Shown here: positions 8,801 to 64,000 of the stretch, piece after piece
How the letters are laid out: each line of letters begins with the position of its first letter
Position numbering within the stretch: the stretch's first letter is position 1
DNA from: Squalus acanthias
Lineage: Eukaryota
DNA length: 64,000 nt
NCBI GenBank assembly: GCA_030390025.1
Contig: CM059432.1
Location: forward strand, 95,854,001 to 95,918,000
Direction of reading: 5' to 3'
Notes under the pieces: generated by a model
What the model was told of the DNA's origin: nothing
The model's input: only the letters and a program-made list of their open reading frames with translations
Databases searched by the model: none
Made by a program: the position numbers and the translations under genes

Positions 8801-9299
8801 CCAGCCCTCCGATAATCTCCCGCACCATGCCTCCCCGCTCCTCCAACCCTCCGATGATCTCCCGCGCCATGCCTCCCCGCTCCTCCGACCCTCCAATGAT
8901 CTCCCGCACCATGCCTCCCTGTTCCTCCAGCCCTCCGATGATCGCCTGGCCCCGCTCCCCTCCCCCTGCTCCTCTGGCTCTCCAATGTGGTCTTCGGCCC
9001 CCCCCACCAATCGCTCTTCTGGCCCTCCGATGTGCTGCTCCGGCTCCCCTGACCACCCCACCGGCCCCCACCTGATCCCTCCCTCCCTCCTCTCTGCAGC
9101 CTGATGCCGCAGCCCTACCCACCCACAGCCAGCCGGCCTCTCCATCTGGGTGGCTGCAGGTGGGAAACAGAGGTTTCCCATGCAAATCAGGCTCTGCTGT
9201 TAAATTCGGCAGGGCCTGCGGGAAACCCAATCTCCTCGGTTTCCTGACTGCTTACGAGCTCCCCTGCTCCCAAACTACCAAAGTCTTAGAATTCAGGCG
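5813..9299. mobile_element. Harbinger-type MITE swollen by an internal minisatellite, inserted in an older repeat
   Basis: Left end gggggaaattttaacccc as in 13807; candidate 3-bp TSD AAA; flanks rejoin as aaataaagagagggaaag. Confidence 0.55.
6280..8945. repeat. 39-bp C-rich minisatellite (unit ~atgatctcccgcaccatgcctccccgctcctccgaccctccg): two arrays (~6890-7610, ~8055-8940) within a ~1.17-kb higher-order duplication
   Basis: Directly visible repeat; 13-aa periodicity in the ORF track; block starting ~6441 recurs at ~7608. Confidence 0.95.
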
Positions 9300-18406: not shown

Positions 18407-19105
18407 GGGGGAAATATTGAGCCGCGCTCCCTTTGGGGCGCTAACTTCGCTGGGGTGCTACTTTTAGCGGCCCAAAAAAATTAGTGCCCCCGTGGCCGAA
18501 ATTCATCGATAGGGCCCCAAGAGGGAAGCTACTGGAAGTGCCCCACCTCCCTCTTGGGGCGCTGCGAGGGAATATCGTGCTGCTACGTCGCGCCACGGTA
18601 CTGCCGGCCTTCCTCCCCCCCCAGCTGGGTCACCAGGGATCAGAGTGCTGGCAAAAGAGCCCGGCACTCAAGAGAAGTGCCGGGCTCACGGAGCGCAGCG
18701 GGGGGGGGGGGGGGGGGGGCAGGTCAGGAGGCTGGGGACGGCAACGGGGCAGGTGCTGGCAGGCGGCCAGCAACAAAAATGGCCATCCGGCACCTCACCT
18801 TTAATTAGCGCCGCCTCAGCTGCAGGTAGGTCCCCCTAACCCCGTCGGACATAGCGTCCGGCGGTAAGTCAGGGGGCGATACCGAAGATCGTGGCCAGGG
18901 CGTGAGCGGGGCGCTGCGCATGCGATGATGTCATCGCTGGCAGCGCAGCGCCGCGGAGCGCTAACGGTTACCGCCGCCGCTAACCTCCCGCTGAATTTCG
19001 CAGGAGGCGTTGGCGGCGCCGTGCCCGGGCACTAATTGCTTTGCGCCCCATTAGCGCCCTCTTAGGACGCTAACGGGAGGCGCAAAGCAACCAAATTTTT
19101 CCCCC
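18407..19105. mobile_element. Harbinger-type MITE, TSD CAA
   Basis: caa|gggggaaatattg ... aatttttccccc|caa; right end matches the left end of the autonomous Harbinger. Confidence 0.85.
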
Positions 19106-25700: not shown

Positions 25701-28700
25701 AAGTCTCATGCAGGCCCAGTTCTACACTCGTTCCCCCGACACCGCCACCCCGCCTCACCAGGAAGGTCCAAAAATCCCAGGGCAACGTTAAGTAGTGTGG
25801 AGACCTGGAAAACCAGGTCTGCACCTCATTTTTCTGACCTTAGCACTTGAGGAAATGTGTGTTACCTTGGTGTAAGAATCAGGAAAATCAGTCCTGAGGT
25901 ATTGTCATACTCACATTTGTAAAGATGAGCCCACAAAGAAATCTTGCTACAAAAACTAGCTGCATTGTGGACGATCATTTACTCACACATATGCTGGAAT
26001 GCAGGGTGGGCACTTGGGTGTCACTGTATATGCTCTTCAAACTTTCATTATCTCGTAATACTTTCTGCTTGCAGCACAAAGTGGCACATAACAGGATGAG
26101 GAAACTGCATAGGCATGGGTCCCTATAAATAAATGCTTCTGAAGAGGCCACCTTTGCAAATCCTAGGCTGGAGAAGGAGTGGAGGAGGGTGAAACAGGAA
26201 CCCTCTGACAAGCTCAGGGCTAGCACCATCCTTTTCCTGTTATTCCTTCTTCACCCAGTGCTTCACTAACTCACTCACATGCATACAAAACAGCACACCA
26301 CCATGATATACATAGCCATGAAAGCACTATTTGAAGGGATGTCATGCAGCCAGCATTTTAACAGCATTCTTCTGTCTTTATAGAAAGAAACAGCCTGATT
26401 TGCTATAAGAACAAGTTAGCACCTCACAGCACCCAGCATCAATCACCCCATCCGCTGCAAGCACCAGCACAGGTACACCTACCAGAGGTGGATGTACCTT
26501 TAGTTAGTTCACTTGAGGATGATGCACCAGGTAATCACATAGCATAAGTAACAGCTTTTGATGCTGACAAAGGAGGAGCAGCAACCTGCTGGCTGGAGAG
26601 TCCACTCACAGCCTTCTTAGTTGCATAGCCCTGAAATTTAGATTGCATTGGGCTTAGATTGCACCAACCCTTTATTTAAAAGAAAGCTGCGATCTGAGCA
26701 CAAAATATTTTATATAGTCATCCGAAGATCTGGCAGCAACTGAAGAGAAGTCCTTTACCCACATCTGTGTAGTTGTGAATGACTAGGCTAGGCTCTAGGA
26801 GACATAAATCATACACGGCTACCAAGTAGAAGCATGAGGTTAAACACTCTGGTTGATACACTCATCACTCTTAGGATATTACGTTTATTTGAACTTAATT
26901 TTAGTCACATCCAGGGAGTTTTGCTCTGAAAATGCAGAATACGGTATCTGCAGAGCAAAGGATGGGCTTCCATGGTAGTTAAGGTAATGCAGAGAACAAT
27001 GTTGGGCCACTCCATTGTGCACATGTGGATGGGATCTTTACTGCATTAGACAGATCAACAACAACAACAAATTTCAATAGGAATCAGGAGGAAAACTCGC
27101 CACTGGCTGGAGTCATACCTAGCACAAAGGAAGATGGTTGTGGTTGTTGGAGGCCAATCATCTCAGTCCCAAGACATTGCTGTAGGAGTTCCTCAGGGCA
27201 GTGTCCTAGGCACAACCATCTTCAGCTGCTTCATCAATGACCCTCCCTCCACCATAGGGTCAGAAGTGGGGATGTTCGCTGATGATTGCACAATGTTCAG
27301 TTCCATTCGCAACTCCTCAGATTATGAAGCAGTCGGTGCCCTCATGCAGCAAGACCTGGACAACATTCAGGTTTGTGCTGATAAGTGGCAAGTAACATTC
27401 ATGCCACACAAGTGCCAGGCAATGACCATCTTCAACAAGACAGAGTCTAACCACCGCCCCTTGACATTCAACGCGATTACCATCGCTGAATCCCCATCAA
27501 TATCCTGGGGGGGGGTCACCATTGACCAGAAACTTAACTGGACCAGCCACATCAATACTGGGGCTACAAGAGCAGGTAAGAGGCTAAGGGGGAGAAATTC
27601 AGTATCGCCCCATTTGGGGCGCAATTATCGGCCGGGCGCAAAGATTAGCGCCTGGCGATAATTATCGCCACCGACTGCAAACTTGACTTTTATCACCCCT
27701 GGAGGTGATTGGAGCGCTAAATCAGGCGCTTCACACCTGTCTTAAGGCGCAAAGGCCGAGGAGCAAGGCGCTACCTCAGAGCACTGGCGAAGCTCCTGTG
27801 ATGCCAGTCAGCAATGGAACACACACACAATGGCGTGGGCCAGTTCTTAAAGGGGAGGGTTGATCTTGCTTTCCATCCACATCCTGCTCATTGCAGCCTT
27901 GAATCTCGGCCTGGAGAGACCTGCACATCAAATCTGCTGGAAAGAACAATGGCGAGTACCAGGGAAAGAGCTCAGAATGCAGCCCCCACAGTCTCTTCTA
28001 AATCGATACAAGGGCAAATCAAAATGAACCTGCAAAGTGCTGCTCAGTACCCAAAACTCCTTCACACAGCGTTGAATCTCTCCAGAAGTCTCTCTCTCTC
28101 TCTCTCAGAATTCGTGGTTCAAAAATGTCACCAACAATAAAAGGCAGGAAGCGGTCGCCTTTAAATAGCGCTCCCCCAGTCCCTTCCTGACTGCAAAATG
28201 CTCCCCTCAACCTGTCGCTGCTAGCGGCAGGCGGTAAGGCAGGGGGCGCCACTCAATATCCGCTCCAGGGCGATACCGGGGCGTTGCGAACTCGACTGAT
28301 GTCACGATCTGCCGGCGCAGGAGATCGTGGCGGTAGTGTTTAGTGCTGCCGCAAAATGTCTAGTTAATTTCACGAGCGGTGCAAACATCACCGTGCCCGG
28401 GCGCTAGATGCTTTGCGCCCCATTAGCGCCCTCTTAAGGCGCTAACGGGAGGCGCAACCAACTGAATTTTTCCCCCTAAGTGTTCTGTGGTGAGTGATTC
28501 ACCTCCTGACTCCCCAAAGTCTTTCCACCATCTACAAAGCACCAACAACACTCAAGAAGCTCGACATCATCCAGGACAAAGCAGCCCGCTTGATTGGCAT
28601 CCCATCCACCACTATAAAAATTTCCTCCCTCCACCACCGGCGCACTGTGGCTGCAGTGTGTACCATCTACAAGATGCACTACAGCAACTTGCCAAGGCTT

Positions 28701-44048: not shown

Positions 44049-45085
44049 AACATCTAGAAACCAAAAACATAGTATTGAATAGTCAGCATGGATTTCAAAA
44101 GGGAAAGTCTTGCTTGACCAACCTCATTGAATTTTTTGAAGAGGTAACAGAGAGAGTAGACAATGATAATTCAGTAGATGTAATTTACCTAGATTTTCAA
44201 AAGGCCTTCGATAAGGTACTCCATAATAGACTGATGAGCAAGGTCAGAGAATGCGGAGTGAGGGAACAAGCAGCAGAATGGATAGCTAGCTGGCTTCAAG
44301 ACAGAAAGCACAGAGTAGGAGTAAAGGGTAGCTATTCACAGTGACAGAAGGTGGGTAGTGGTGTTCCACAAGGATCAGTGCTGGGGTCACTGTTGTTCAC
44401 AATTTATATTAACGATTTAGACTTTGGAATCAAAAACACAATTTCTAAATTTGCGCATGACATCAAATTGGGGGGGGGGGATAGTCAATACTGAGGAGGA
44501 CTGCAACAAATTACAGGAGGACATTAATAAACTTGCAGAATGGGCATATAATTGGCAAATGAAGTTCAACACAGATAAATGTGAGGTATTACATTTTGGT
44601 AGGAAGAATAGGGAGGTCACTTATTACTTGGAGGGTGCGAGTCTAGGTGGGGTAGAGGAGCAAAGGGATCTCGTAGTACAAATACACAAATCACTAAAAG
44701 TTACGACACAGGTTAGCAAGGCATTAAAAAAAGCAAACCAAGCACTAGGGTTTATTTCTGGAGGTATAGAATTGAAAAGTAGGGAAGCTATGCTAAACCT
44801 GTATCGAACCTTGGTTAGACCACACTTAGAGTAATATGTACAGTTCTGGTCGCCATATTATAAAAAGGATATTGAGGCACTGGAGGGGGTGCAGAGAAGA
44901 TTTACTAGGATGATACCAGAAATGCGAGGGTATACATATCAGGAAAGGATGAACAGGCTGGGTCTCTTTTCTCTTGAAAAAAGGTTGAGGGGTGACCTAA
45001 TAGAGGTCATTAAAATTATGAAAGGTTTTGATAGAGTGGATACAGAGAGAATGTTTCCACTTGTGGGGAAGAGCATAACTAGAGG
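44049..45085 (+). mobile_element. CR1 ORF2 fragment, left part (host of the LTR element)
   Basis: QHGFQKGKSCLTNL..YLDFQKAFDKV..MFPLVGKSITRG. Confidence 0.92.
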
Positions 45086-46742
45086 TGTAAGGGGTGACCT
45101 GCGGCTCTGTGCTTAGCCTAGGTGCTAGTGCGAGGTTAGGCCTTGTTGCCTGTTCTGGTCTCCAGCCAGCCTGGTAACACTAGACACCTGTGAGTGGTTC
45201 GACCCACTCGCCCTTACGGTTCTGACACTGGACTTAGGTGCGAGAGCAATAATGCAGAGAAAACTCAGGTAGACCCGGTTGAATAGTGCGAAGTGGAAAA
45301 TCTTTATTGCATATTATTCAAGATTACGAGATACATGTCATAAGCACAGATTAATGACAGTACAATCTTACACACAGTTATGTAACTCATTTTAGGGAAA
45401 CGAGGAGCGCATGACACATCGTAAAAGGGGGCACACATTACAATTATCCTTAAAACTTAAACCCTCCCCTATCAATACCTGCTCTAAACTAGACTTGTAG
45501 GATCGAGACTCATGCTCACCACTCGTGATAACTCGGAGAATTCCGAAACTCTGCTCGGATGTTTTTCCCCGCAGCACCTGACTATCCACGTGTTGATCAG
45601 GGGTCTCTGTACCCCACTTGTTTACTCGTCTCTGCTCCGGCTAGCAGGCTGGACCGTCTGCTGTCATGAAGATCTGTGTTGTCCTCGGAGTTCCGACTAC
45701 TACTCGAAGAAGAGTCTTCCTGTGCCCTCACCAGTTTGTAAAATTCGAAAGAAAAGTCTTCCTGGGCAAGGAAGTGTTTATTCGACTTACAGGCGCGGTC
45801 GGGGTTTACTGACCGTGGCGATACGTATTGTCGTCTTCTCTTCTCATCTCATCTCATCTCATCTCATCTCATCTCGGGCCTTCGGTTCCAACACCGTTTA
45901 CCGACTTCTCGGGATGGTGCGCCCGTTTCAAGGCTCACAGCCCAGTTCTACACAGATCTTCGCGGCAAGCCACGAGGTTGATCCTAGCGGATCAGAGTCC
46001 AGAGCCGTCAGGCAAGAGAATAAAAATTCAACAGTCTTCCAGCGAGTCAAAACAGCAAGAGCAGCAAGAGGCAGGCGGCAAGAGACAAGAGCAACAAGAG
46101 AAACAAGAGAGAGATGGACGGTTGTACCTTACAGTTATAGTGCTGTAATTCCTCTTTTCCCGCCCAATCTTAATGTCTATCTTTTGTCAGGTTTTTGGCG
46201 CTCAAGCTTCTTGTATAGGGTGATCTCCGTTTTTAATGGGTTTCGGTGATACTTGTAACTGTCTGAGTACCCGTTAATACTTCTCCCATTGTGGAACCGG
46301 CCAGTAGTCTCCCTGGAGGGGTTTTGGGGCTTCCAAATGCTTTCTGTAACTACCCGCAAACGGCTCTCTCATCGTAGAGTCGTGGGGATTTTGCATATTA
46401 ATGTCTTTGGATGGGTCCTTGATCGCTCGGTACAATAGCCCTTATTCGCACCTGGGAGACCGATTCCAGTATTTATGTATAAAATGCAAACCCATTATGT
46501 CTTGTCAATTATCTCAAATGTGCTGAGTCCTGTACGATCTTGCACAAATGTTTATTGGAACGCCATCTTGTCTGCTCATTGAAAGTCTAGAACGTTCTGC
46601 CACGAGGCGTGGCGGCCATTTTACAGGCTGTTTGTGTCCGCTTTGAAAACCTGACAGCATTCTGCTGAAATAAAGCTGTTTGTACGAAACTTTATGTCTC
46701 CTTCTTACTTTATAAAATCGCGAGAATTTTGTGAATTCTACA
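45086..46742 (-). repeat. 3' LTR (1657 bp)
   Basis: Direct repeat of 56979-58636 with only scattered substitutions/indels; internal (ctcat)n. Confidence 0.97.
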
Positions 46743-46755
46743 GTCCCTCCTGTTG
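46743..46755 (-). promoter_or_regulatory. Polypurine tract
   Basis: Minus strand AACAGGAGGGAC directly precedes TGTAG of the 3' LTR. Confidence 0.75.
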
Positions 46756-47168
46756 ATGCGAATAACTCCGCTTATCGTATCAAAAAATATTGTGGTGAGC
46801 AATATTATCTCGATTCTCCACATCCAAAAATTCCCATAACTTAAAGCTATCTAGGGTCTCTGTGTCGTCCTTATTTCCCAGGAAAACTACATTCTTATAA
46901 CACCGTAGGCAGCATTTGCCTTTAACTTACACCGCGTATACGTCTTCCAGGTGCAACAGGCCGATGCCTCTCGCACCACCTGTATATGTATTTTATTATA
47001 CAAGGAAAAAGAAAACAAAAACACCCAAACAATCATATTCAACAACACCAAACCAACTCTTAAACATGTAGAGTTCCAAACTTAATTACAGTTTCTGAGA
47101 AAAATCACGATCGATTACAACACTTCCGAGGCGCACGTGGAAAACGGGAGTGACGCCATTTTGTCTGT

Positions 47169-49520
47169 TTACACGGTGCTTTCATCGTGCACGCGCACGT
47201 AACGTTCTCGCCACTCTCCCGTGTTTTCGTTCTTGGTGAGGCGTTTGCCTCTCTTACAATGCACGACCAATAAGTATATCACAATAAACACTTGGCATAC
47301 AACTAAAATGTGGGAGGCTATTCTAATCCAGGAAGGCACTTCAATGTTGGTGAACAGATTCCACCACGGTGGAATTACTATGTCCAGAATTTCTGTCCCT
47401 ATCTCGACAGTCTTTTGTTCTAGGGTGTAAAAATGTTTTTGCGATACCGCGACGGCTTTCAAAAGCTTGGTGAGGTGTTCAGGGAGAGGGGGAATGAGGT
47501 ATCCGAAATGCGCGACGAATCGCTGCAGGTCGGTGAAGTACTCTTTTACGGTAAGATGAACCGTGGATGGTTCAGGGATTGGGACAATTCGCTGTTGTGC
47601 TACTTGAACTTCCGCCCTGGGTTTAAAACAGAAACTGCTGTCACTCACCGGACACCGGCTACGGTTTCCATGTTGGTAGTGTTGCGCTGCAGTGGTAACA
47701 CAATATGTTCCACCCCCGATGTATGCTACCTGCGGAGGCACATGATCTTGTGCCATTGTCTCCATGGTGCAATTCATGGGCTTGGCGCCAGCCGTTCTGA
47801 ACCCGCACTGTGGTGTTAAAAAGGCATTCAAGTGCTGGGGACACAGTATTATGTGTGCTCCCCGGCCACGACAACCAGAGAGATCTGTACCTGTCATCGT
47901 TTGCTCCCAGCGGATGACGTAAGGTGGAACCGCTGCATAGCGAATGTGGGCTCCCCCCTGAATGACACCAATGTTCTCTACCCGATACACCGGGGCGGGC
48001 TTTGTTGTGTCGCCCAAAACCGGCATACGTAATACTAGACCCATGATGGTATGGTTTGATCGTCCGCAGTCCACGGGGACTGGGTATGCTTCTGAAGCTA
48101 GTCTGAGCTGGCACGGGTTTAATGCGTTCTGAAAAGGGTGGCGCGCCTGCAGGTGTTTGTTACTTATCCAGGACGGGACCAAACCTTGTTTTAAATCCTC
48201 CAAATTACTGCGGCCCTCGCCCAGTAACCACGCCCCGTAAAGCACACACACCTCATTCTGCGCAGCCTGATCGGATGCATTCCGATCTTCCCTAATCAGG
48301 GCATTTACCGTACGCGCATGTTTCTCTAGTTCGGCTATTATTTCTTTTAAATGGAGAGTCATGGCCTGGTCCTCGTGTAACCCAGACCCAACCACCTTAT
48401 TTTCATCTGTGAGAATGCTTTTTAATTGCGTTTTTAAGCCATTAATCTGGGTCTGCAGCTCCACGCTGTCTAGAGCGTTGACCACAGATGTACCTGTATT
48501 GAAAGCAGTGAACATGTCGTTCACAACATCCCTTCTTTGCCTCCACACCTGACCCAAAACTTCATGTGGTGCGGTGTACAAACTTGTTTTATCAATTTCC
48601 GCGAAATCGAACTCATAAAATTGTCTAAAACATCTTGGTCAACAGGACCTGATATAACTGTTCCGTCTTTTTGGGGCACCACTCTGGTAACCGCACCTCG
48701 GTGAGATTTAAAATCACCGAGGCCACCGCGTAAGGTACCCCCTGAAATAGTATCTGGTCTGTGGGGACCAGTACCAAACCATTCCCGGGTCCCTTACTGG
48801 TTTTAGGGCACCCTTCTTCCTTAGCTAGAACCACCGGACCGTGGGCGGGGCTTTGCGTGGGCGTGTAATGAGTTCAGTGGCATTTACCGGGATCGGGGAG
48901 TATGGGGCTCCGCACCCCCTGGTGCTCGCATCCCACCTCATTCCCTGTCCGTTATCCTGCCATTGATTGATGAAAAATATGGAGATGCCTTTGGGGCAAA
49001 CGTGCTTTGACCCCCACATACATACATAAATTCCCTCATCCGGTTCCCACCATTTGTCCCAACAGACTCTCACTTGTCCGTTTGTCCCCGTAATTGTCCG
49101 ATGGGTATTATTACCCAGTCGCTCCCACTCGACCGAAGAGTTCCTCATGTTTTTGCTCAGCTTTCGTAGCCACCACCATCGGCTCAATGGGACATTCCCA
49201 TTACAAGTCAAACAAATTCGTTTGCCGACGGTGACGCTGACTCTGGGTGCGATGATCCTCACTTTGGGGCACATTAAAGAAGTCTCTTTGTAGGCAAAAC
49301 CCGATGTACTGGAATACTTAGTTGAATTCGTTCCCAGCCATCCTGGCCACCTTCCCTTGTGGAAATAGGTGGTGGTCTCCTCAGCCTCTCGCCTTCCGGT
49401 CCCATCCACCGCGATGGGGGCCGTGTCCCCGGAGCATCCAAACACCACGACATCCTTGGTGCGGCCTCGATAGGCCAATCCACATCCGATTGCCGCGAGC
49501 AATACTAGAATTCGTTCCAT
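47169..49520 (-). pseudogene. env: env: class I fusion glycoprotein (F-protein-like) with N-terminal Ig-like domain; ~783 aa after repairing two compensating 1-nt frameshifts (~48836, ~48627)
   Basis: Signal peptide MERILVLLAAIGCGLA; furin site RQRR; heptad region; Cys-rich ectodomain; TM IASHILVVCQVFIVIYLLVV; short basic tail. Confidence 0.85.
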
Positions 49521-49799
49521 CCTTCCTTGGTTCCTGTGATCAGATAGAATGAGGTAGCCAGCCTCCCAAGAGTCTCTGGCTTTTGTGAAGGGTGAGCGGG
49601 TCCCCTGACCTCGCCTCACGTAAGAAGACATGTGCGCTGGATAGACTTTAACTATTCCTATCTCTAAAACTCCCATCATTTTACCTCTTTCTGTTAAACA
49701 AAATTAAACTACCGACTTAACCTGATTTAAAACTATAAACTTATAAACTCATCCTAAACTTATCACTGTACCGCGCCGCCCGTTCCCAGGGCGGCCTAC

Positions 49800-50865
49800 T
49801 CAAATTCTGCGGTTGCTGCCGTAGGCTTCTCCCAACGGTGGGAGGGCATTGACCCCTCCCTTTGATCTGCCGCAGCCTATCGCTGCTGCGCTGGGACTGG
49901 GATCTCCCTGAGCTGCCTTGACCTTGAACTTACGTCTAGGGACATATGGGGGACTTACCCAAATCTTTCTGGGCTGGGGTATCCGACCTGACCTACGGAG
50001 AGTTACCGGGGGCAGGAATCCCAGGACCGACGGACCGGGTTCCGAGACTTCCACCGTGGCGACCTGTGGTCCCACCACAGTCGCTGGCTCCGCCTCCCCT
50101 GACTCCGCCTCCTTGACCTCGGGACTTGCAGCTTGTGGCACCGCCCTGCTCGGCCCAGCAGGCAGCCCTTCACTCGCAGTCCCTACCTCCCCCGAGGGCA
50201 GGACGTTCAAGGCGGGCGGCTCGGGCTCTGAGGCTTCCACCGTCACGCCCTGTGGTCCCACAGCGGCTGGCTCCGCCTCCCCTGGCTCCTCCCCCCTGTG
50301 TTCGGGACCTGCAGCCTCGGTGTCCACCCTGTGTGGATCTCTATCTGCAGCCCCTGTCCCCCCTATACCTGAATCGGGGGCGACCCTTTCGTCCTCCGAT
50401 TCCCACTCTCCACTACCTTCACTATCCTCATCTTCGTCGAGCTCTTGGAACTCTCCCTCATCTGACTCCCAACCCAAATAAAAGATCTTACATTTTTCTA
50501 GGATGTCCTCTCCCCTGATGCAAGCTGCTTTGCCTGCCTGTGTGCCCTGTGGCCCTACCTGGGGCTGCGAGTCCCCACTCGCAGGTTTGGCACCTGTGAT
50601 TGGCCCTTGTGCACCTGGCTTATACAGTTTGCACTGATTTAAATCCCTGCTTCTGGCTACCTCGTGGGCTGCCTTTATATCTCTGAGCTGTGCTTCTAGC
50701 ATGAGCACGCCTACTTTCCCCATTAAGCGGGCGTTCTCCTCCCGCAGGGCCTGCTCTCTAAGCTGCCCTTCTAGCACTTCTATTTGCCCCATTAAGCGGG
50801 CGTTCTCCTCCCGTAGGGCCTGCTCTCTAAGCTGCCCTTCTAGCCCATCTATTTTCCCTATTAAG
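49800..50865 (-). CDS. Orphan ORF (>=330 aa) occupying the pol position: 23-aa coiled-coil repeats, acidic tract, Pro/Ala/Glu duplication, basic LRRSGR tail
   Basis: ORF 49800-50792, open upstream to ~50873; 69-bp tandem repeat 50719-50867; no PR/RT/RNase H/IN motifs. Confidence 0.55.
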
Positions 50866-53136
50866 CGTGTCTTTTAAAAGGACACAGGTAGGCAGGCTGC
50901 GTGGGCTCTAGTCATTGGGTACTGTTGGACGGGGCTGCGGCATCTGCGGGGCCGGTAGCAACTGCCACCCTTCCATGCGAAATCATGAGGGTGCGCATGG
51001 CTCCCAACACTGATTCGATCGCATCGGGATGGATAGGTGCACTAGCTCCCCTATCGGAGACAGGCGCCTGGGCTCGGACTGCGGGATTTTTATCCCTGGA
51101 CTCTTTCCAAGGGTTCCTGCAGTTCTTGCGCCAATGCCCTGTCTTCCCACACCCGTAACAAGCATTACTGGCCTGCGGGGCACGGTTACCCTCCTGATGC
51201 CACTCCTTTTGAGCTGGGGCTGCGGGCCGCGCCTCATGCACCTTTCCCTTAAGGGGACGTGCTCCCGTACTCCTGGTATTACGGTACCCTACCGTGAGTC
51301 GATTTAGGACCGACTCCTCTGTAGTGGCGGGGTTAGTGGGATCAAACCATGCTTTTGCCTGCTCCCTGACGGCTGGCAAACTGTTGGCTACTATACACCT
51401 GAGCCAATGAGTTAAACCGACACCGTCTATGCGGTGACGCGCTGGCGCGCCTGGGCAGCTACGCTGGTATACTGGCCACAGCCTGTCGGCGAAAACCTTC
51501 GGGGGTTCTCCCTCCATCTGCACTGTTTGTCCCAATCTAACGAACGGACCTTCATCGTCCGCTCCCAACACTTCTAGGACCTCATCTCTTAACTCCCCAT
51601 AGGTATTATTTCCCCTCTTGCTCTCGTCTGAGAGACACTGAAGGATCGAGCTGTCTAATTAGAACAACAGCATTTTTGCTTTTTCCCCATCGTCGCAGCC
51701 GTTAATGGCTGCGGTTTGCTCTACCTCCCTGAAATGTACGGAAGGGTCGTCTGACTCGGCCAGCTTCCGTACGTGACTGATCATAACCCTCAGCTGGTGT
51801 GAGCTGTGAGGCAACACAAGCTGGTTGAGGAGATCCCCCTCTGCCCCACCGTCTCTGTTCGGGCCCCTTTTGATACCCGTGACCGGACACAACGGTCCCG
51901 GCTTCACTTCTATCTCAGTGGGCTCTTCCTCTACTTCTACCACTTCCTTCCTCACCCAGGTTGCCGAATAGCTGGGTGGCGCGGAGGGCACAGTGGCTAA
52001 TACCTCCTCTGCTTTGTTCGGTGGGGATTTCTGAAATTCCTCATCCACCAGCGGCTGGTGTGCTGACGGGCTGATAAGGCACACCATGCCGTGCGCTTTA
52101 TTCAGGGCCTTTTTAAGGTTCCCTATCTCTCTTTGGCAGACGCTGTGATCGGCCCCCTGATGTTTATCCTCGAGGGCCATCTTATATGCCGCCCTAACCC
52201 CCGTTAAGCTCTCTTCCTGGGCTTTTATTTGGGCAACCAGGCGGGCACATCGTTCCTTTATTCTGCCCTCATTTAACTTTGCCTCAGTGACCTGGCACTC
52301 GAGGTAATCTATTTTCGCCTCATGGTGGTTGGCGACTAATTGGCGTTCTTGATGTAACGCATTTAAAGACGCGATGAGCTGCTGCCCCCCCGCGACCTTC
52401 TCGTCCATTTCCACCTCTAAACCCTTGATCTGAGCTGCCTGCGCTAAGATGACCTGGTCCGAAAGCTGGACTTGTCTTTTATAGCACATCAGCCAGACCG
52501 CTTTCTCTACTGTTTTTTTATGTTCCTTGCTATCTGTCCACCTCTCGGCTGCCTCTAGTGGACGCTTATCCACCAGCAGGTCACTTATCCATTTCTTAGT
52601 CAAATTCACTTTTCCAAACACATAGGGGTAAAAATTCACTTGGTTGCGCCTCCCGTTAGCGCCTTAAGAGGGCGCTAATGGGGCGTTAAGCCGCTAACGC
52701 CCGGGCGCAGCGCTGTTTGCGCCGCTCGAGAACTTAACTTGAGATTGTGCGGCGGCGCTAAAACTTACCGCTGCGACCACCTGCGCGCGCAGATTGTGAC
52801 ATCATTCCATGGTGCAACGCCCTTGGGGCGCCCCGGAGCGGAAATTGAGTGGCGCCCCCTGCCTTACCGCCTGGCGCTTCCAACGACCGGAAGACTGGAA
52901 CGTTATCAATCGGTGTGGGGCTGGGGGGGGCGCTATTTAAAGGGGGCCTCTTCCTGTCTTTTTCTGTGGTCGACATTTATGCACCACTCGTTCTGAGAGA
53001 GAGAGAGAGATTCGGAGAGAGAGAGAGAGAGACTTCTACATTGACTCAACGCTTTGTGAGGTAGTTTGGCCTAGTTCATCCTAACTTTGTTGCTACTTTA
53101 GTTGCTGTACCTCATTACTTTTCTGGCAAAGAGAAT

Positions 53137-54297
53137 ATGGGGGCTGCAATGATTGGGGGCGTCGTCCTGCTCCAGCTAAATCGGAGGATAGTGAGACGCA
53201 GACAGAGAGTGGCAATGATGGCCAGACGGAGGAGGGCCATCAGGCGCATGTACAGGAGAGCTTACCCTCCCAGGGTATATCGTGAACAGCTCTCCTACAT
53301 CCATATGTCCGAGGAGCTGTGTTTGCGAAGGCTGCGATTCAGCAAGGAGGTGGTCACTGAGCTCTGCCACCTGCTGCAGCCAGATCTGCAGCCTCAGCTG
53401 AGGTCCAGGACGTCTCTGTCGGTGGCAGTGAAGGTCACAGTGGCTTTGAACTTCTACGCCACTGGCTCATTCCAAGCTGCTGTTGGGGACCTTGCCAATA
53501 TCTCCCAGTTTGCGGTGCATCGCTGCATCCGGCAGGTCACCAATGCCCTCTTCAGAAGGAGACGAGACTTCATCTCTTTCCCTATGACCCCAGACAAGCA
53601 GCATGACCGTGCTATGGGCTTTGCGAGGGTAGCGGGCTTCCCCATGGTGCAGGGCGCCATTGACTGCACGCATGTGGCTTTGCGTGCTCCGCGAGAGAAT
53701 GCAGAGGAGTTCAGGAACAGAAAGGGGTTCCATTCCTTGAATGTGCAGTTGGTCTGTGACCACAGACAGGTGATTCTCGCTGTCAATGCCCACTATCCGG
53801 GCAGCTGCCACGATGCTTTCATCCTGCGCCAGATTACTGTGGCAGAACTTTTCGAGGCACCGCATCAGCCAGTTGGTTGGCTTCTGGGGGACAAGGGGTA
53901 CGCATTGAGCACCTGGCTGATGACACCGCTCCGTGCGCCAAACACCCCTGCTGAGCTGCGGTACCAGGAAAGCCATCAAGCAACCAGGAACATTATTGAG
54001 CGCACAATCGGCGTGCTGAAACAACGGTTCCGCTGTCTGGACCATTCCAGAGGAGCCCTGCAGTACTCGCCTGAGCAAGTTTCGAAGTTCGTAGTCGTGT
54101 GCTGCATGTTGCACAACATGGCAATCCTCAGGACCCAGCCAATGCCACCAGGCCTTGTAGCACCACCAGAGGAGGAGGAGGAAGAGGAGGAACAGGACGA
54201 GGACGATGATCATCAGCAGCACCAAGGCAGGAGGGCGGCCCACAATGGTCAAACTGCAAGGGCCGTCCGTCAACGACTAATAGCAAGCCGCTTCTAG
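53137..54297 (+). CDS. Harbinger DDE transposase (HARBI1-like), intact 386 aa
   Basis: GAIDCTHV, NRKGFHSLNVQLVCD, PGSCHDAFIL, LLGDKGY, IERTIGVLKQRFRCL, CCMLHN. Confidence 0.96.
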   Translation: MGAAMIGGVVLLQLNRRIVRRRQRVAMMARRRRAIRRMYRRAYPPRVYREQLSYIHMSEELCLRRLRFSKEVVTELCHLLQPDLQPQLRSRTSLSVAVKVTVALNFYATGSFQAAVGDLANISQFAVHRCIRQVTNALFRRRRDFISFPMTPDKQHDRAMGFARVAGFPMVQGAIDCTHVALRAPRENAEEFRNRKGFHSLNVQLVCDHRQVILAVNAHYPGSCHDAFILRQITVAELFEAPHQPVGWLLGDKGYALSTWLMTPLRAPNTPAELRYQESHQATRNIIERTIGVLKQRFRCLDHSRGALQYSPEQVSKFVVVCCMLHNMAILRTQPMPPGLVAPPEEEEEEEEQDEDDDHQQHQGRRAAHNGQTARAVRQRLIASRF

Positions 54298-54590
54298 GGC
54301 CCCTGCCATTGCTACAAACACGAATCAACCCAGCACGCAACCCCTAAGCCGGCCAAGGCACAATAATTCCAACCACCAACCATGTATATTTTGAATACAG
54401 AAACTTATTTATTTTACAAACTCTGTGTGTGTCAATTCCTCATGACAAACTCATAGAAATAAACACAAAAAAACAGTCAATAACATAACTGGTTCTCACA
54501 ACCTGGAGATAATGTCCAAAACACTAAACAAAAGTTGGGCCATGAACCTCGGCCTTTAATAAAAAAATGACCAGCATTTTGGCACACCTC

Positions 54591-56522
54591 CTACTTTTTT
54601 CCCTTCGAGGGTGATCTCCTTCCCTTGCGCACTTCCCCCCTTCTAACCCTACTGCTCCTCCGTAATGGGACCTCAGTGGCTGCAGCAAGGCTGGTGGAAG
54701 GCTGCTGCTCGTCAGACCCTGACACTGCAGATGCCCCTGAAGGACGGCCTCGACCAGTTCTGGGCCTGGAGGGCCCGGCTGCAGACTGCACCAACTCTGC
54801 ATGGGCGGCAGCAGTCTGTCCTACAGGCGGTGGCAAGTGCAGTGGAGAAGTGACAGTGTTGGCAGCAGGAATGCTGTCATCGTGAGAGAGGACAGCAACT
54901 CCCTGCTCGCCCGACACACTGGCACTCCCACGGGGCAGCACTTCAGCATCCGGAGCAATTTGCCGGAGAACAGATTGCTGGCCTGCTGCGGCGCGGTGAC
55001 AGCCCCGGGGACATGTGCACGAACCATCGAGGATGGCAGCAGTCAGTGCTCGCGTGGCCTCAATCTGAGTCTGCATGAGAGCAGTCTCAGATGGGTTCCT
55101 GGCAGCCAGTGACTGAATTGCAGCACTAAGCTTTAGTGTGGCATCCGCCTGTGCTACAGCGAAGTGCTCCACACTCCTTGCCAGTGCCTCAATGCATTCG
55201 GGCACCCTTCCCACTGCACCCATGAGCTCAGTGTGCATGCCCACCGCCTGGCTGTTCATTTCTGCAATCAGCCGCTCCTCCTCTGCGTCCATTGCAGTAG
55301 GAGTGTCTGGCATACTCTCCCTCTGGGGAGAAGGCTCCCGTTCTTCCCTCCCCCCCCCCATGGCGTTGCTGCAGCCCGCTGGGTCCTGGAGCTTCACCAT
55401 TATCAGCCCCTTCCCCCCTGCTCCCCTCCGGGGAAGGCGTGTTCCCAGTGTGGCCATGGGCTTCCTCGGGAGAGGGTGGCACTGATGCTCCGGCTTCCTC
55501 TTCCTCCTCAGCTGCAGCATCACTCCCAGTGGCAGCTTCAGGGCCCGTCTCCTCAGCTGGTGAATCACCATCTGAAAGCAGGGAGGTACAAGAGTGGCTT
55601 TAGCGTGTGGACAGGGTGGCAGTAAGGGAGGAATAAGTGCAGCGAGTTAGCAAGTTGGATTGAAAGTGTCAAAGGCTGGTATTGTGAGGGACAAGTGGAA
55701 GGACAGAGGACAAAAAGGTGATGACCTTACCATTGCTGTCCACAACGGGGTCGGCGTCCCCAGTGGCGACGGGACCGATCACCCGGCTTGCCACAATCCT
55801 GTGGACGCGCTCCTCCAGATCGCTGAGGGGTTGCAGCTGAAGCCGCCCTGCACCCGTCCGTTGCTGCTGTCTCCGATTATGAGCCAGCTTAGCCTGCAAG
55901 AAAAAGGACAGCATCTGAGTAAATATACAGCCATGGTCTTGCCTGATGTGCCTCCCATAGGTGAATAGCCCTTACAATATGCAGCCATGGTCTTGCCTGA
56001 TGTGCCTCCCATAGGTGAATAGCCCTTACAATATGCAGCCATGGTCTTGCCTGATGTGCCTCCCATAGGTGAATAGCCCTTACAATATGCAGCCATGGTC
56101 TTGCCTGATGTGCCTCCCATAGGTGAATAGCCCTTACTGTATGCAAAGTGTGGAATGTGTGTGTGTGTTTGATGAAAGGGCCATAGGTGTTGCATGAGTG
56201 TTGTGCATTGGGGTTTTAAGACCCTCTGGCCATAGAGTGAGGTTGAGATGGAGGGATGGAGAGGTATTGAGAAAAAGCCACTCACCCTGACGACCCGAGT
56301 GAGGTCGTTGAACTTTTTGCGGCACTGAACATGGGTCCTGGGCACCATGCTCCTGGAGGAGACGCTCTGAGCCACCTCCCTCCACACTCTTCTGAACTCG
56401 CGTGGCAAAGGCCTCCTGCCACTCTCCGGGAACAGCATGCATCGTCTGCGCTCCACTGCGTCAACCAGAGCATCCAAGGCCCGCTCGGTGAAGCGATGAG
56501 CGCGTTCTCTCACCCTCTCCAT
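54591..56522 (-). CDS. Harbinger Myb/SANT-like DNA-binding protein; exons 56522-56286, 55893-55731, 55571-54591; one frameshift in a G10 run (55350-55359)
   Basis: RFTERALDALVDAV..WREVAQSV..RTHVQCRKKFNDL; GT-AG introns with matching phases. Confidence 0.85.
55923..56143. repeat. 54-bp tandem repeat, ~4 copies, in intron 1 of the Myb-like gene
   Basis: tatgcagccatggtcttgcctgatgtgcctcccataggtgaatagcccttacaa repeated. Confidence 0.95.
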
Positions 56523-56955
56523 GCTTGGCAGCAAAATGGATTACAGGTCTCTCCAGGCTGAGATTCAAGGCTGCAATGAGCAGGGTGTGGCTGGGGAGCA
56601 AGTGGCCCCCCCGCTTTAAGAATAGTCCGGCGCCAGTGTGTCTGTGTTCCCTCGCTAACTGGCAGCAGCTGCGCTGCGCTCGTGCGCTGAGGTAGCGCCT
56701 CACTCCTAGGCCTTTGCGCCTTAAGAGAGGTGTGCAGCGCCTAATTTAGCGCTCCACTCACCTCCCGGGGCGGTAAAAGTGAAGTTTCCTGTCAGTGCCG
56801 ATAATTAGCGCCAGGCGCTAATATTTGCGCTCGGACGATATTTGCGCCCCAAATGGGGCGCGACCTAATTTCTACCCCATAATCTGCTATTCTCTCTTCC
56901 ATGACATTTCGCCCATTCATACCAGGGTCTAACACATCATTTTCTCGCTGCCAGT

Positions 56956-56973
56956 GTCCCTTCGTGGTGGCCA
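56956..56973 (-). promoter_or_regulatory. Primer binding site, tRNA-Arg(TCG)-like
   Basis: TGGCCACCACGAAGGGAC, 5 nt inside the 5' LTR boundary; matches the recalled vertebrate tRNA-Arg 3' end ..GTCCCTTCGTGGTCGCCA with one mismatch. Confidence 0.75.
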
Positions 56974-56978
56974 TTTTC

Positions 56979-58636
56979 TGTAAGGGGTGACCTGCGGCTC
57001 TGTGCTTAGCCTAGGTGCTAGTGCGAGGTTAGGCCTTGTTGCCTGTTCTGGTCTCCAGCCAGCCTGGTAACACTAGACACCTGTGAGTGGTTCGACCCAC
57101 TCGCCCTTACGGTTCTGACACTGGACTTAGGTGCGAGAGCAATAATGCAGAGAAAACTCAGGTAGACCCGGTTGAATAGTGCGAAGTGGAAAATCTTTAT
57201 TGCATATTATTCAAGATTACGAGATACATGTCATAAGCACAGATTAATGACAGTACAATCTTACACACAGTTATGTAACTCATTTTAGGGAAACGAGGAG
57301 CGCATGACACATCGTAAAAGGGGGCACACATTACAATTATCCTTAAAACTTAAACCCTCCCCTATCAATACCTGTCCTAAACTAGATTTGTAGGATCGAG
57401 ACTCATGCTCACCACTCGTGATAACTCGGAGAATTCCGAAACTCTGCTCGGATGTTTTTCCCGCAGCACCTGACTATCCACGTGTTGATCAGGGGTCTCT
57501 GTACCCCACTTGTTTACTCGTCTCTGCTCCGGCCAGCAGGCTGGACCGTCTGCTGTCATGAAGATCTGTGTTGTCCTCGGAGTTCCGATACTACTCGAAG
57601 AAGAGTCTTCCTGTGCCCTCACCAGTTTGTAAAATTCAAAGAAAAGTCTTCCTGGGCAAGGAAGTGTTTATTCGACTTACAGGCGCGGTCGGGGCTTACT
57701 GACCGTGGCGATACGTATTGTCATCTTCTTCTCTTCTCATTTCATCTCATCTCATCTCATCTCATCTCGGGCCTTCGGTTCCAACACCGTTTACCGACTT
57801 CTCGGGATGGTGTGCCCGTTTCAAGGCCTCACAGCCCAGTTCTACACAGACCTTCGCGGCAAGCCACGAGGTTGATCCTAGCGGATCAGAGTCCAGAGCC
57901 GTCAGGCAAGAGAATAAAAATTCAACAGTCTTCCAGCGAGTCAAAACAGCAAGAGCAGCAAGAGGCAGGCGGCAAGAGACAAGAGCAACAAGAGAAACAA
58001 GAGAGAGATGGACGGTTGTACCTTACAGTTATAGTGCTGTAATTCCTCTTTTCCCGCCCAATCTTAATGTCTATCTTTTGTCAGGTTTTTGGCGCTCAAG
58101 CTTCTTGTATAGGGTGATCTCCGTTTTTAATGGGTTTCGGTGATACTTGTAACTGTCTGAGTACCCGTTAATACTTCTCCCATTGTGGAACCGGCCAGTA
58201 GTCTCCCTGGAGGGGTTTTGGGGCTTCCAAATGCTTTCTGTAACTACCCGCAAACGGCTCTCTCATCGTAGAGTCGTGGGGATTTTGCATATTAATGTCT
58301 TTGGATGGGTCCTTGATCGCTCGGTACAATAGCCCTTATTCGCACCTGGGAGACCGATTCCAGTATTTATGTATAAAATGCAAACCCATTATGTCTTGTC
58401 AATTATCTCAAATGTGCTGAGTCCTGTACGATCTTGCACAAATGTTTATTGGAACGCCATCTTGTCTGCTCATTGAAAGTCTAGAACGTTCTGCCACGAG
58501 GCGTGGCGGCCATTTTACAGGCTGTTTGTGTCCGCTTTGAAAACCTGACAGCATTCTGCTGAAATAAAGCTGTTTGTACGAAACTTTATGTCTCCTTCTT
58601 ATTTTATAAAATCGCGATAATTTTGCGAATTCTACA
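56979..58636 (-). repeat. 5' LTR (1658 bp)
   Basis: Direct repeat of 45086-46742. Confidence 0.97.
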
Positions 58637-58640
58637 GTGG

Positions 58641-61665: not shown

Positions 61666-64000
61666 GGTCTAGAAATGCAAAGGTTTAGTGCGACCTGTTA
61701 CTGCCAGATTCGAGCAAAAAATTGGCTGCGACTGCTCTTCCACCCGCTGCCAGTGGGTCCCACAGCGGCTGCCATTTTGCAATGGCCGGCAGCGATGTCG
61801 ATGACTGCACTTGCTAGGGATGTGTAGATTATACAGATTGTGACGTCAGTGAGTGTGAAACGCTCACTTGACGCCCTATTTGCGAGTTTGGATTTTGCTG
61901 CTCCACTTACCAGCATGCTGTAAGTGCGATGAGCTGAGCAAGTGTTGACAAGCAGGAAGGAGGCTCAAGCAGTGGCATTTAAAGGAATCATCAACAACAA
62001 CTTGCAGCTGACGTGTTTCTCGAGTTTGACTGGCGTTGTGCAACTTTCTGCAACTCCAGCTTTATTAACTTATTGCAAGGTTCTAAGGTAACAGGGAGTG
62101 TTGGGGCAAGTGGAGACGCCTTCATTCTTATGTAAAGGCTTCTGCTCACACTTGCTCGCAGTCATGGGGGCTCTACGGGCAGTCCCCTTCATGCTTGAGT
62201 ATCTTCGGGAGAGGGAACGGAGGCAGCGAAGAAGAGGAGAAGATGCGCGCAGGGTGAGGAGGAGGAGGAGGGGCCAGGAGGCTCTCCACAGGAAGCCTTG
62301 CCCACCTGGGTCTATTTAAGCGAGGAGCAGTGTATTAGGAGGCTTCACTTCAGCAAGGAGGTGGTCACAGAACTCTGCCACCTCCTGCAACCAGACCTGC
62401 AGCCTGAGAGCAGGGCGAACACAGCTCTCCCAGTACCAGTCAAGGTCACCGTGGCCCTCAATTTCTTTGCTAGCGGATCCTTCCAGTCTGCAGCAGGAGG
62501 CATAGCTAACATCTCCCAGTTCACCGTCCATTGCTGCATCTGGGAGGTCACTGAGGCTCTCAACACCAGGAGAAGGGACTACGTTTTCTTCTCTCCGAGC
62601 AGAGAGAAGCAGAACGAGTGCACATGTGGCTTTGCCAGGATAGCGAGCTTTCCCATGTTGCAAGGCGCCATTGACTGCACACATGTGGCTTTGCGGGCGC
62701 CGTATAACAATCCTGAGATCTTTCATAACCACAAAGGCTACCACTCACTTAATGTGCAATTGGTGTGCGACCACGGCCAGCGTTTCCTGATGGTCAATGC
62801 CCACTATCTGGCAGCTGCCATGATACCTTCATCCTGCATCAGTCTGATGTGCCAGCAATCTTCCAGCCACCACATAAAACTCGAGGGTAGCTGCTCGGAG
62901 ACAAGGGCTTTCCGCTCTCCACATGGCTCATGATTCCCCTCCGCAACCCCAGCACTCATGCCCAGCACTCATATAATGAGAGTCATGTTGCCACCAGGAA
63001 CATCATCGAGCAGACCATCGGGCTGCTGAAGCACCGGTTCCGCTGCCTTGACCGCTCGGGAGGAGCTCTCCAGTACTCGGCAGAGCGGGTGTCCCATTTC
63101 GTGGTTGTCTGCTGCATGCTTCACAACTTGGCCATCACGAGGGCTCAGCCCGTGCCAGCAGGGATTGCAGGACCACATCAGGAGGAGGACGAGGGAGAGG
63201 AGGAGGAAGAGGAAAATGAGCAAGAAGAAGAGGAAAAGGACGAGGAGGGAGTGGGCCTCAACAGACTCCGATTCCAATGAAGGAAATCCCAGATCCCCGT
63301 TGCTCACCACATCCCCATCTTATCATCCCTCTGTCACAGAGTATCACACCGTCCTTCTGGGCACAAAGCTGAAATGAGATCCACCACAAAAGATTCCAAA
63401 CAAAATTCATAAATTTATCCAAAATCAATTGACACATATTTACACTTACGATATGAACTAATCACCCTTGTGTAATCCTTTTGTGCCTGTCGTTTGGGTG
63501 CCCTTTCCTGCCCTAGTGCTCCTATGAAGTGCTCCCCCAGTGGCTGCAGCATTGCTGGTGGAAGGCTGCTGAGCTTCCATGGAGGAGACTTCAGAGGGCC
63601 ATGCAGGACGACCTTGAGCAGGTCTGGCTCTCGAAGGCCCGGCTGTGGACTGCACCATATGGACATGGGCGGCAGCAGTCTGGGCTGGTTGGCTGACAGG
63701 CAGCAGCAAGGGTGGAGTGGCAGTGGTGGGAACAGGAATGCTGTCATCCTGAGAGAGGACAACAGGTTCCTGCTCCACTGACTTACTGCCAGTCCCCTGG
63801 GGCGGTGCCTCAGCATTCCTAGCAATCTGGGCTGCTGCGACACCCTGCAAGCCCCGGTCAACACTGCTAAACCCAGCCACGATGGCAGCAGTCTGAGCTT
63901 GGGTGGCATCATGCTGAGCCTGCATGAAAGTGGTCTGTGCTTCTGCTGCAGCACTAAGACATTGGGTCGCTTCTGCCTGTGCTACAATGGCAGCGCAACA
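61666..64000 (+). mobile_element. Second, degraded Harbinger element (runs off the window end)
   Basis: Left end ggtctagaaat; frameshifted transposase ~62164-63280; minus-strand Myb-partner C-terminus 63458-64000 homologous to 54591-55150. Confidence 0.9.
62164..63280 (+). pseudogene. Harbinger transposase pseudogene
   Basis: [36 protein letters not shown] in different frames with stops. Confidence 0.9.

What the first reader, a model, noticed from the sequence alone, without database searches (positions are those of the whole stretch)
45086..58636. Young pol-less endogenous LTR element keeping gag and an F-like env: candidate satellite/helper-dependent lokiretrovirus-like virus
Seen: two ~1.66-kb LTRs differing at only a few dozen positions at most, a 4-bp TSD, PBS, PPT, a ~600-codon Gag and a ~780-codon Env. 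Only ~1.4 kb lies between gag and env, with no protease, RT, RNase H or integrase motif. Known: lokiretroviruses combine a coiled-coil-extended Gag with Env related to paramyxo/pneumovirus F proteins. Inference: the clean TSD, near-identical LTRs and a separate ORF filling the pol slot suggest it integrated in this pol-less form. It would supply its own capsid and envelope and borrow enzymes from a helper, which is an unusual design for a non-autonomous element.
Basis: partly seen in the sequence, partly recalled or inferred. Interest (0 to 1): 0.88.

Follow-up and report, generated by a model that had tools for sequence, protein, structure and literature searches.

The report
Enzyme-less retrovirus hitchhiking on complete siblings
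This is a broken copy of an enzyme-less form of a young retrovirus family with about 3,000 copies in a likely cartilaginous-fish genome; about a third of the family carries the same short filler in place of the enzyme gene while keeping coat and envelope genes, and these copies likely spread by borrowing enzymes from, and swapping genes with, their complete siblings.

Summary
The pol-less layout is real and family-wide. Its gag-filler junction occurs 1,086 times in the genome, the gag-pol junction of a complete form 2,106 times. The complete form has protease, RT, tether, RNase H and integrase, with the same LTRs and tRNA-Arg primer site.

(1) This copy is dead: a 4.25-kb Harbinger splits gag, gag has a stop, env is frameshifted, and the TSD is 3/4. 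(2) The 'separate ORF' is Pol's own C-terminal tail (86%) fused to a ~80-codon coiled-coil filler, in frame behind a UGA-CUA readthrough-type gag stop (open in 32 of 35 copies). (3) It is not an independent satellite: short and long forms are fully mixed on gag, env and LTR trees. (4) Env is F-like (Foldseek 1.7e-11), but the helper RT groups with retroviruses away from a lokiretrovirus RT (100/97; AU p 0.059) and looks snakehead-retrovirus-like.

Best reading: a defective pol-replacement cassette carried by a recombining, recently active ERV population, like mouse IAP I-delta-1. The scan noted this family before on other DNA (e1-8036056).

The parts
45082..45085 (.). TSD, left copy (GAGG), inside an old LINE RT remnant
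45086..46742 (-). 3' LTR
46743..46754 (-). polypurine tract; same in 19 sampled short copies that were printed with a 3' LTR or its start
47169..49520 (-). env, 783 codons: signal peptide, weak Ig-like N-terminal part, RQRR cleavage site, fusion peptide, heptads, TM, 28-aa tail; out of frame between about 48,830 and 48,640 in this copy
   Evidence: fold of a natural sibling Env matches paramyxo/pneumovirus F
49800..50645 (-). retained C-terminal tail of Pol (acidic, Pro-rich; follows the integrase SH3-like domain in complete copies)
   Evidence: tblastn 86% to the last 281 residues of Pol, E 1e-142
50646..50880 (-). coiled-coil filler with a 69-bp tandem unit (50704-50867) that replaces about 3.6 kb of PR-RT-tether-RH-IN; not found in complete copies; frame-shifted in this copy
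50908..50914 (-). gag stop in UGA-CUA-G context (type II readthrough hexamer), in frame with pol in long copies and with filler plus tail in short copies
   Evidence: hexamer class from PMC13517186 passages
50912..52621 (-). gag, main part: N-terminal coiled coil, capsid-like region, one CCHC knuckle; internal stop at 51659-51661
52625..56878 (+). nested Harbinger DNA transposon (HARBI1 transposase 53065-54297 +, Myb/SANT ORF 55779-56540 -), ATA TSD, splitting gag
56879..56902 (-). first 8 codons of gag
   Evidence: same start in sibling Gag
56956..56973 (-). primer-binding site, tRNA-Arg(TCG), 17/18
56979..58636 (-). 5' LTR
58637..58640 (.). TSD, right copy (GTGG, one substitution)

Best explanation
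This is a decayed copy of a pol-less form that makes up about a third of a young endogenous retrovirus family, and it likely multiplied by being packaged with the RNA and enzymes of the family's complete form, likely swapping gag, env and LTR with it during reverse transcription. Shown: one shared cassette (gag stop, coiled-coil filler, Pol tail) replaces PR-RT-RH-IN at about 1,086 junctions; a complete form with the same LTRs, PBS, gag and env stands at about 2,106; the two are mixed on all three trees; many copies of both have identical LTRs. Inferred: the deletion plus filler arose once; ribosomes read through UGA-CUA and make a Gag-filler-tail protein in place of Gag-Pol; short RNA enters particles that also hold Gag-Pol made by long copies; template switching moves the cassette onto whichever gag, env and LTR variant is active. 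The open frame is probably kept for a cis benefit to its own RNA (translation-linked stability or packaging, as for IAP I-delta-1), not for an enzyme. The window copy integrated into a LINE and was later hit by a Harbinger and by point lesions.
For: Junction counts 1,086 and 2,106 with reversed-pattern controls 0. 20 of 20 position-sampled short-junction loci have filler and no pol after gag; 18 of 20 long-junction loci carry pol through integrase. Pol domains in Pfam. Perfect TSDs in 23 of 28 measurable short copies; LTR divergence median 0.06% (n=14) short and 0.14% (n=12) long in position samples. Trees need 19 label changes against shuffled means 18.7 (gag, env; 58 rows) and 20.8 (LTR; 64 rows). 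The window LTR's nearest row is a pol-bearing copy at 99%. Filler dS 0.12 against gag 0.31 in the same short copies, as expected if the cassette moved across gag variants. One short copy carries a piece of integrase spliced into its filler (S041). Filler-tail frame open in 32 of 35 copies; 30 of 34 measured fillers fall in six in-frame length classes and the 4 out-of-frame lengths are singletons. Both junctions also occur in runs under other organism labels.
Against: No expression, readthrough, packaging or mobility was measured. Amino-acid constraint on the filler is weak and not significant (omega 0.51; shared changes 8 synonymous against 10 non-synonymous, p 0.12), and the tail has omega near 1 in both forms. 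Two of the six in-frame classes are gains or losses of the 69-bp unit, in frame by construction, and the copies are young, so open frames are partly expected. Purifying selection on gag and env in short copies (omega 0.27, 0.09) cannot be credited to the short form because it shares these genes with the helper. Mixed trees do not separate template switching from DNA-level conversion. Counts include some tandem arrays and possibly haplotype duplicates. The DNA trees are FastTree only.
Confidence: 0.8

Rival explanations
1. An independent satellite-like virus lineage with its own gag and env that only borrows enzymes from a separate helper.
For: Short copies keep gag open (17 of 18) and env open (10 of 15) as often as long copies (13 of 20, 10 of 18); env lesions are nearly all private to one copy.
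Against: No clustering by form on gag, env or LTR trees; short-long gag distance 0.119 lies between short-short 0.108 and long-long 0.126.
Confidence: 0.05
2. The Gag-filler-tail readthrough protein is a selected, functional product whose coiled coil joins Gag's own coiled coil and biases assembly or packaging towards the short RNA.
For: Readthrough hexamer kept in 34 of 38 short copies (3 of the 4 misses are copies with a variant gag end); frame kept; filler resembles Gag residues about 75-160 (E 3.5e-4 to 0.036; 0-6 of 200 shuffles as good); IAP I-delta-1 fusion acts in cis (PMC6466679 passage).
Against: Heptad patterns inflate such matches; no DNA-level similarity; filler constraint not significant; no homologue found.
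Confidence: 0.2
3. The cassette spreads by DNA-level gene conversion or ectopic recombination between integrated copies, not by co-packaging.
For: Would also mix forms on trees; 5 of 28 short and 5 of 17 long copies have non-matching TSDs, some perhaps recombinant.
Against: Most short copies have their own perfect TSD and near-identical LTRs; shared deletions in SERV-K/MER11 are read by their authors as propagated by co-packaging (PMC11379458 passage).
Confidence: 0.08
4. A one-off post-insertion deletion or an assembly artefact.
For: This copy has private lesions, and some 1-bp indels in siblings look like assembly errors (17 in one env).
Against: 1,086 junction matches; 31 other full-junction loci among 40 scored; junction bridged by contigs of independent public runs.
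Confidence: 0.01

Closest known systems
Mouse IAP I-delta-1 (PMC6466679, passages read)
   Same: Shared internal deletion, in-frame Gag-Pol remnant fusion, non-autonomous, very successful, needs proteins in trans.
   Different: I-delta-1 loses part of gag and has no env. Here gag and env are whole, all four enzymes are gone, foreign filler bridges the gap, and the fusion sits behind a readthrough stop.
SERV-K/MER11 and HML-2 type 1 shared-deletion proviruses (PMC11379458, passages read)
   Same: Large shared pro-pol deletions in many proviruses, thought to propagate by co-packaging.
   Different: Tens of copies, mostly also env-deleted; no filler or kept replacement frame in the passages read.
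Zebrafish BHIKHARI Bik-1/Bik-2, pol-less lokiretrovirus relatives (bioRxiv 2024.03.25.586437, passages read)
   Same: Young pol-less fish elements with an intact coiled-coil Gag and an inferred partner.
   Different: Gag only, no env, no autonomous copy in the reference; here env is kept and the helper is the majority form.
Lokiretroviruses (PMC7947760; main text parts 1-3 of 4, supplement parts 8, 67, 68)
   Same: gag-pol-env, tether plus RNase H, F-like Env with a basic cleavage site.
   Different: Helper RT has LPQG / QYVDD where all 24 Loki RTs have PFG and YVDD- or FVDD-type motifs, and groups with retroviruses in my tree; the paper found Loki in 0 of 6 cartilaginous-fish genomes; Env has an extra N-terminal domain.
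Snakehead retrovirus and SnRV-like / clade Huo ERVs (PMC6001957, PMC4977317, PMC12193657, passages read)
   Same: RT motifs match the SnRV row by eye; best Pol hits are from turtle and coelacanth, where SnRV-like ERVs are reported; gag-pol by stop readthrough.
   Different: Stop context UGACUA against SnRV UAGGGC; Env tail 28 aa against 136; SnRV itself was not in my tree; an F-type Env for this clade did not appear in my searches.

Membership tests
Lokiretrovirus | RT falls in the Loki clade, sister to all other retroviruses | tested here: not met
   Helper RT joins turtle, coelacanth and epsilon-like RTs to the exclusion of Loki-type P0004 at 100/97 (23 rows, LG+G4; SH 96). The AU test of helper+P0004 gave p 0.059, so that clade is not formally rejected. 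Only one Loki row, identified by motif match to the paper's alignment.
Lokiretrovirus | Dual RNase H (tether plus RH) | tested here: met
   PF17919/PF17917 and PF00075 in the helper Pol; shared with all retroviruses, so not diagnostic.
Lokiretrovirus | Env related to paramyxo/pneumovirus F with cleavage site, fusion peptide, coiled coil and TM | tested here: met
   AF2 model pLDDT 74; top Foldseek hits hPIV3 F E 1.7e-11, RSV F, NDV F.
Lokiretrovirus | Integrase closest to CGIN1/NYNRIN | tested here: inconclusive
   Best IN scores: turtle 'NYNRIN-like' P0002 291 bits, Loki-type P0004 251, coelacanth 214; automatic names, no IN tree.
Lokiretrovirus | Capsid similar to MuLV and Ty3 CA | tested here: inconclusive
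   Atlas features point to Retrotrans_gag / Ty3_capsid at 0.93-0.95; single-sequence AF2 pLDDT 41; PDB hits only for the zinc knuckle.
SnRV-like (clade Huo) ERV | RT clusters with snakehead retrovirus | tested here: inconclusive
   Motif match by eye to the SnRV row of Data set S2; SnRV not available as a tree row; best solved-structure hits are 4 gag-pol / RT-p80 chains (E 1e-43 to 1e-41; names recalled as MLV-type), ahead of Pr125Pol (recalled as foamy) and Ty3.
SnRV-like (clade Huo) ERV | pol in frame with gag behind a read-through stop | tested here: met
   In-frame UGA-CUA in 28 of 29 long copies; hexamer differs from SnRV's. Readthrough itself not measured.
SnRV-like (clade Huo) ERV | Long Env cytoplasmic tail and accessory ORFs as in SnRV itself | tested here: not met
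   Tail 28 aa against 136; accessory ORFs not examined. A feature of SnRV, not shown to define the clade.
Non-autonomous deletion derivative (IAP I-delta-1 / SERV-K type) | Same deletion junction at many loci with separate TSDs | tested here: met
Non-autonomous deletion derivative (IAP I-delta-1 / SERV-K type) | Autonomous partner sharing LTRs and PBS | tested here: met
Non-autonomous deletion derivative (IAP I-delta-1 / SERV-K type) | Mobilised in trans; fusion protein helps in cis | not testable with these tools
   Inferred only.
Satellite virus (own lineage, own capsid, separate helper) | Genealogy independent of the helper | tested here: not met

The most novel reading that the evidence does not exclude
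A germ-line defective-interfering retrovirus with a built-in drive protein. The pol-less form keeps the readthrough signal to make a Gag-coiled-coil-Pol-tail decoy of Gag-Pol, possibly built from a duplicated Gag coiled coil, that favours its own RNA in mixed particles. The cassette has ridden one still-enveloped, F-type, snakehead-like retrovirus across all its subfamilies and several host species at a stable one-in-three share.
Probability: 0.2. Interest if true: 0.82.

Novelty: new variant of a known kind. Interest (0 to 1): 0.55.

Why it matters
Non-autonomous ERVs in the papers read lose env, or both gag and env. Here about a thousand copies lose only the enzymes, keep gag, env and a replacement frame behind the readthrough stop, and stay genealogically fused to the helper. 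That is a defective/helper pair frozen in a vertebrate germ line, with enough copies to measure recombination, cheating frequency and cis preference from sequence alone. Separately, an RT on the retrovirus side of the tree paired with a paramyxovirus-F-type Env bears on the open question raised by Wang and Han: whether an F-like Env was ancestral to retroviruses plus lokiretroviruses.

Tried and rejected
Troyka: rejected (TG..CA ends, 4-bp TSD; PMC12440569 part 1 of 5). Filler origin: no blastn match in 18 long-form stretches; no homologue for filler plus tail among 8,000 scored candidates of 204-650 aa; Atlas best 0.85, a lead only; protein likeness to Gag's coiled coil weak. Capsid fold from one sequence: pLDDT 41, not used. 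Expression: no RNA holder listed; run X13 is only guessed to be RNA; no evidence either way. Complex prediction of filler with Gag's coiled coil: tool not available, so binding is untested. A gag-end pattern meant to count the whole family gave 2,161, fewer than the two junction counts together because it misses a divergent subfamily; not used. The careful mixture-model RT tree did not finish (quick tree shown), so a smaller LG+G4 tree was run. The SnRV genome paper PMC190236 is not held; that SnRV primes with tRNA-Arg is recalled only and not used as evidence. Literature searches for a pol-less, gag+env-keeping ERV subfamily: searches returned 0 papers; searches listed none by title or abstract start. 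Most of those papers were seen as listings only, subscription journals and Repbase were not searched, and bioRxiv supplements are closed. Rows dropped: trees used the 57 of 69 sampled elements with both gag and env matched; the filler-frame count used 35 of 40 short copies (2 lacked a full gag, 3 had a variant gag end); 7 of 41 fillers had no 3' anchor match; S034 was left out as a duplicate of S033.
Full report
OBSERVATION. The element lies on the minus strand between LTRs at 56979-58636 and 45086-46742. They differ by 12 substitutions in 1,654 bases and 5 indel runs. It sits in a LINE remnant. The flanks read GAGG and GTGG; the empty LINE site reads GAGG in 5,303 exact genomic matches, so the TSD is real but has one substitution. 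The PBS matches the 3' end of a tRNA-Arg(TCG) gene of this genome at 17 of 18 letters. A PPT precedes the 3' LTR. Without it the element is about 9.3 kb. Gag has an internal stop, env is out of frame over about 190 bases, and the filler is frame-shifted. This copy is dead. It is also older than most: position-sampled short copies have a median LTR divergence of 0.06%.

THE FAMILY. The window is G000:C8:95854001-95918000 in a 3.7-Gb assembly. The closest Env relatives are from a skate and sharks, so the host is probably a cartilaginous fish (inference). Of 40 scored hits to the gag-env gap, one is the window, 31 carry the same short junction and 8 match only its last 1,040 bases. Those 8, and a ninth taken, have about 3.6 kb more after gag. 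That insert encodes protease, RT, tether, RNase H and integrase. With one mismatch allowed, the short junction occurs 1,086 times and the gag-pol junction 2,106 times; reversed controls give 0. To avoid choosing by likeness I fetched 20 loci of each kind at about every fifth place of the first 100 listed (contigs C1 and C2 only; tandem neighbours skipped). All 20 short-junction loci have filler and no pol; 18 of 20 long-junction loci have pol through integrase. Of 28 short copies with both ends measurable, 23 have perfect 4-bp TSDs, 21 different 4-mers. Contigs of public runs under three other organism labels bridge the gag-filler joint, a fourth bridges the filler-tail joint, and two also show the gag-pol junction as a loose end. 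The labels are coded, so close relatives and mislabels cannot be told apart.

THE 'NEW ORF'. A natural Pol hits the window element only at 49803-50645, 86% identical to Pol's last 281 residues, the acidic tail behind the integrase SH3-like domain. In front lies a ~240-bp filler with a 69-bp tandem unit and a heptad pattern, absent from 18 long-form stretches. The gag stop is UGA followed by CUA in 28 of 29 long and 34 of 38 short copies. UGACUA is the type II readthrough hexamer of alphaviruses (PMC13517186 passages). Pol is in frame behind it in long copies; filler plus tail is in frame and open for 360 or more codons in 32 of 35 short copies. Thirty of 34 measured fillers fall in six in-frame length classes; the four out-of-frame lengths are singletons. 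Against over-reading: two classes are gains or losses of the repeat unit, the copies are young, filler omega is 0.51 with shared changes 8 synonymous to 10 non-synonymous (p 0.12), and the tail has omega near 1 in both forms. The frame looks kept; a precise protein function is not shown. The filler resembles Gag's N-terminal coiled coil weakly (E 3.5e-4 to 0.036; 0-6 of 200 shuffles; no DNA match). Its origin is unresolved.

SATELLITE OR DEFECTIVE ALLELE. If the short form were its own virus it would cluster. It does not. Gag and env trees each need 19 label changes against about 18.7 shuffled (34 short, 24 long; starred branches force at least 13 and 10). The LTR tree needs 19 against 20.8. 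Both forms span gag variants from 78-80% to 99% identity to the window. Filler synonymous diversity (0.12) is below that of gag (0.31) and env (0.18) in the same copies. The simplest account is one deletion-plus-filler event whose cassette is passed among gag, env and LTR variants by template switching in co-packaged RNA pairs (inference). Short copies keep gag (17 of 18) and env (10 of 15) open as often as long ones (13 of 20; 10 of 18), and env lesions are almost all private. That fits copies being made from templates with intact env. It cannot show that a short copy's own Gag or Env is used, because these genes are refreshed from the helper.

CLASSIFICATION. Env works like a lokiretrovirus Env: the model (pLDDT 74, 39 sequences) finds paramyxo- and pneumovirus F first (hPIV3 F, E 1.7e-11). 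The RT does not. P0004 matches the published teleost Loki RTs almost letter for letter. The helper RT joins turtle, coelacanth and epsilon-like RTs to the exclusion of P0004 at 100/97 (SH 96). The AU test does not formally reject helper plus P0004 (p 0.059), and only one Loki row was available. By eye the helper shares LPQG, QYVDD and neighbouring motifs with the SnRV row, where Loki rows have PFG and YVDD/FVDD. Wang and Han list 0 of 6 cartilaginous-fish genomes with Loki. SnRV-like ERVs are reported from coelacanth, reptiles and elephant shark (PMC4977317 passages). I put SnRV-like / clade Huo at about 0.65, an unplaced basal retrovirus at 0.2 and Loki at 0.15.

PRECEDENT. SERV-K/MER11 has shared pro-pol deletions thought to spread by co-packaging (PMC11379458 passages). 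Zebrafish Bik-1/2 are gag-only. EAV-HP is believed to need a helper (PMC4607243, one passage). None of the passages read keeps whole gag and whole env with a foreign in-frame filler behind the readthrough stop, and searches listed no such case within the held library. Other papers seen: PMC6001957, PMC12193657, PMC4131045 and PMC4724089 as passages; bioRxiv 2023.10.26.564294 as abstract and outline.

VERDICT. Observation partly confirmed; interpretation partly supported. It is a new variant of a known kind: a pol-replaced defective form fused by recombination to its own majority helper. Interest 0.55. My reading before the look-up matched note e1-8036056; the tree mixing, the frame statistics, the cross-label junctions and the RT placement were tested here.

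Noticed in passing
window 52625-56878; L029, L033, L034, L044, L068 (env-to-LTR spacer): A young Harbinger family (94-96% to the window copy) repeatedly inserts into this ERV. Five sampled short copies have it at the same spot about 100 bp after env, in both orientations (L033 and L034 are duplicates of each other), which suggests a target-site preference.
   Followed up: partly
window 56956-56973 and sampled loci: Two sharply different PBS types occur in both short and long forms. One matches a tRNA-Arg(TCG) gene; the other is recalled as a second Arg(TCG) isodecoder and was noted earlier (e1-7806816).
   Followed up: partly
window 48828-49520 (-): The Env N-terminal region gives a weak Ig_3 hit (E 0.044). 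Homologues from sharks, a skate and frogs share an extra N-terminal domain. Noted earlier in the scan.
   Followed up: partly
G000:C1:143.657-143.674 Mb, C1:204.985-204.993 Mb, C2:133.594-133.602 Mb: Short-form junctions repeat at 7.7-7.8-kb spacing, as expected for tandem LTR-internal-LTR arrays.
   Followed up: no
L041 (filler): One short copy has a piece of integrase C-terminal sequence inside its filler, a likely fresh short/long recombinant.
   Followed up: partly
P0122, P0127: Database proteins from a sawshark named 'Niban 1-like' and 'cadherin-related family member 5-like' contain pieces of this Env (64-66% identity); probably gene-model chimeras, possibly exonised env.
   Followed up: no
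window 6329-8987: GC-rich 42-bp minisatellite array in two blocks with a duplicated flank.
   Followed up: no
window 27585-28484 (-), 18853-19105 (-), 62321-63936 (+): Further, more diverged Harbinger copies or internally deleted derivatives (70-83% to the nested one).
   Followed up: no
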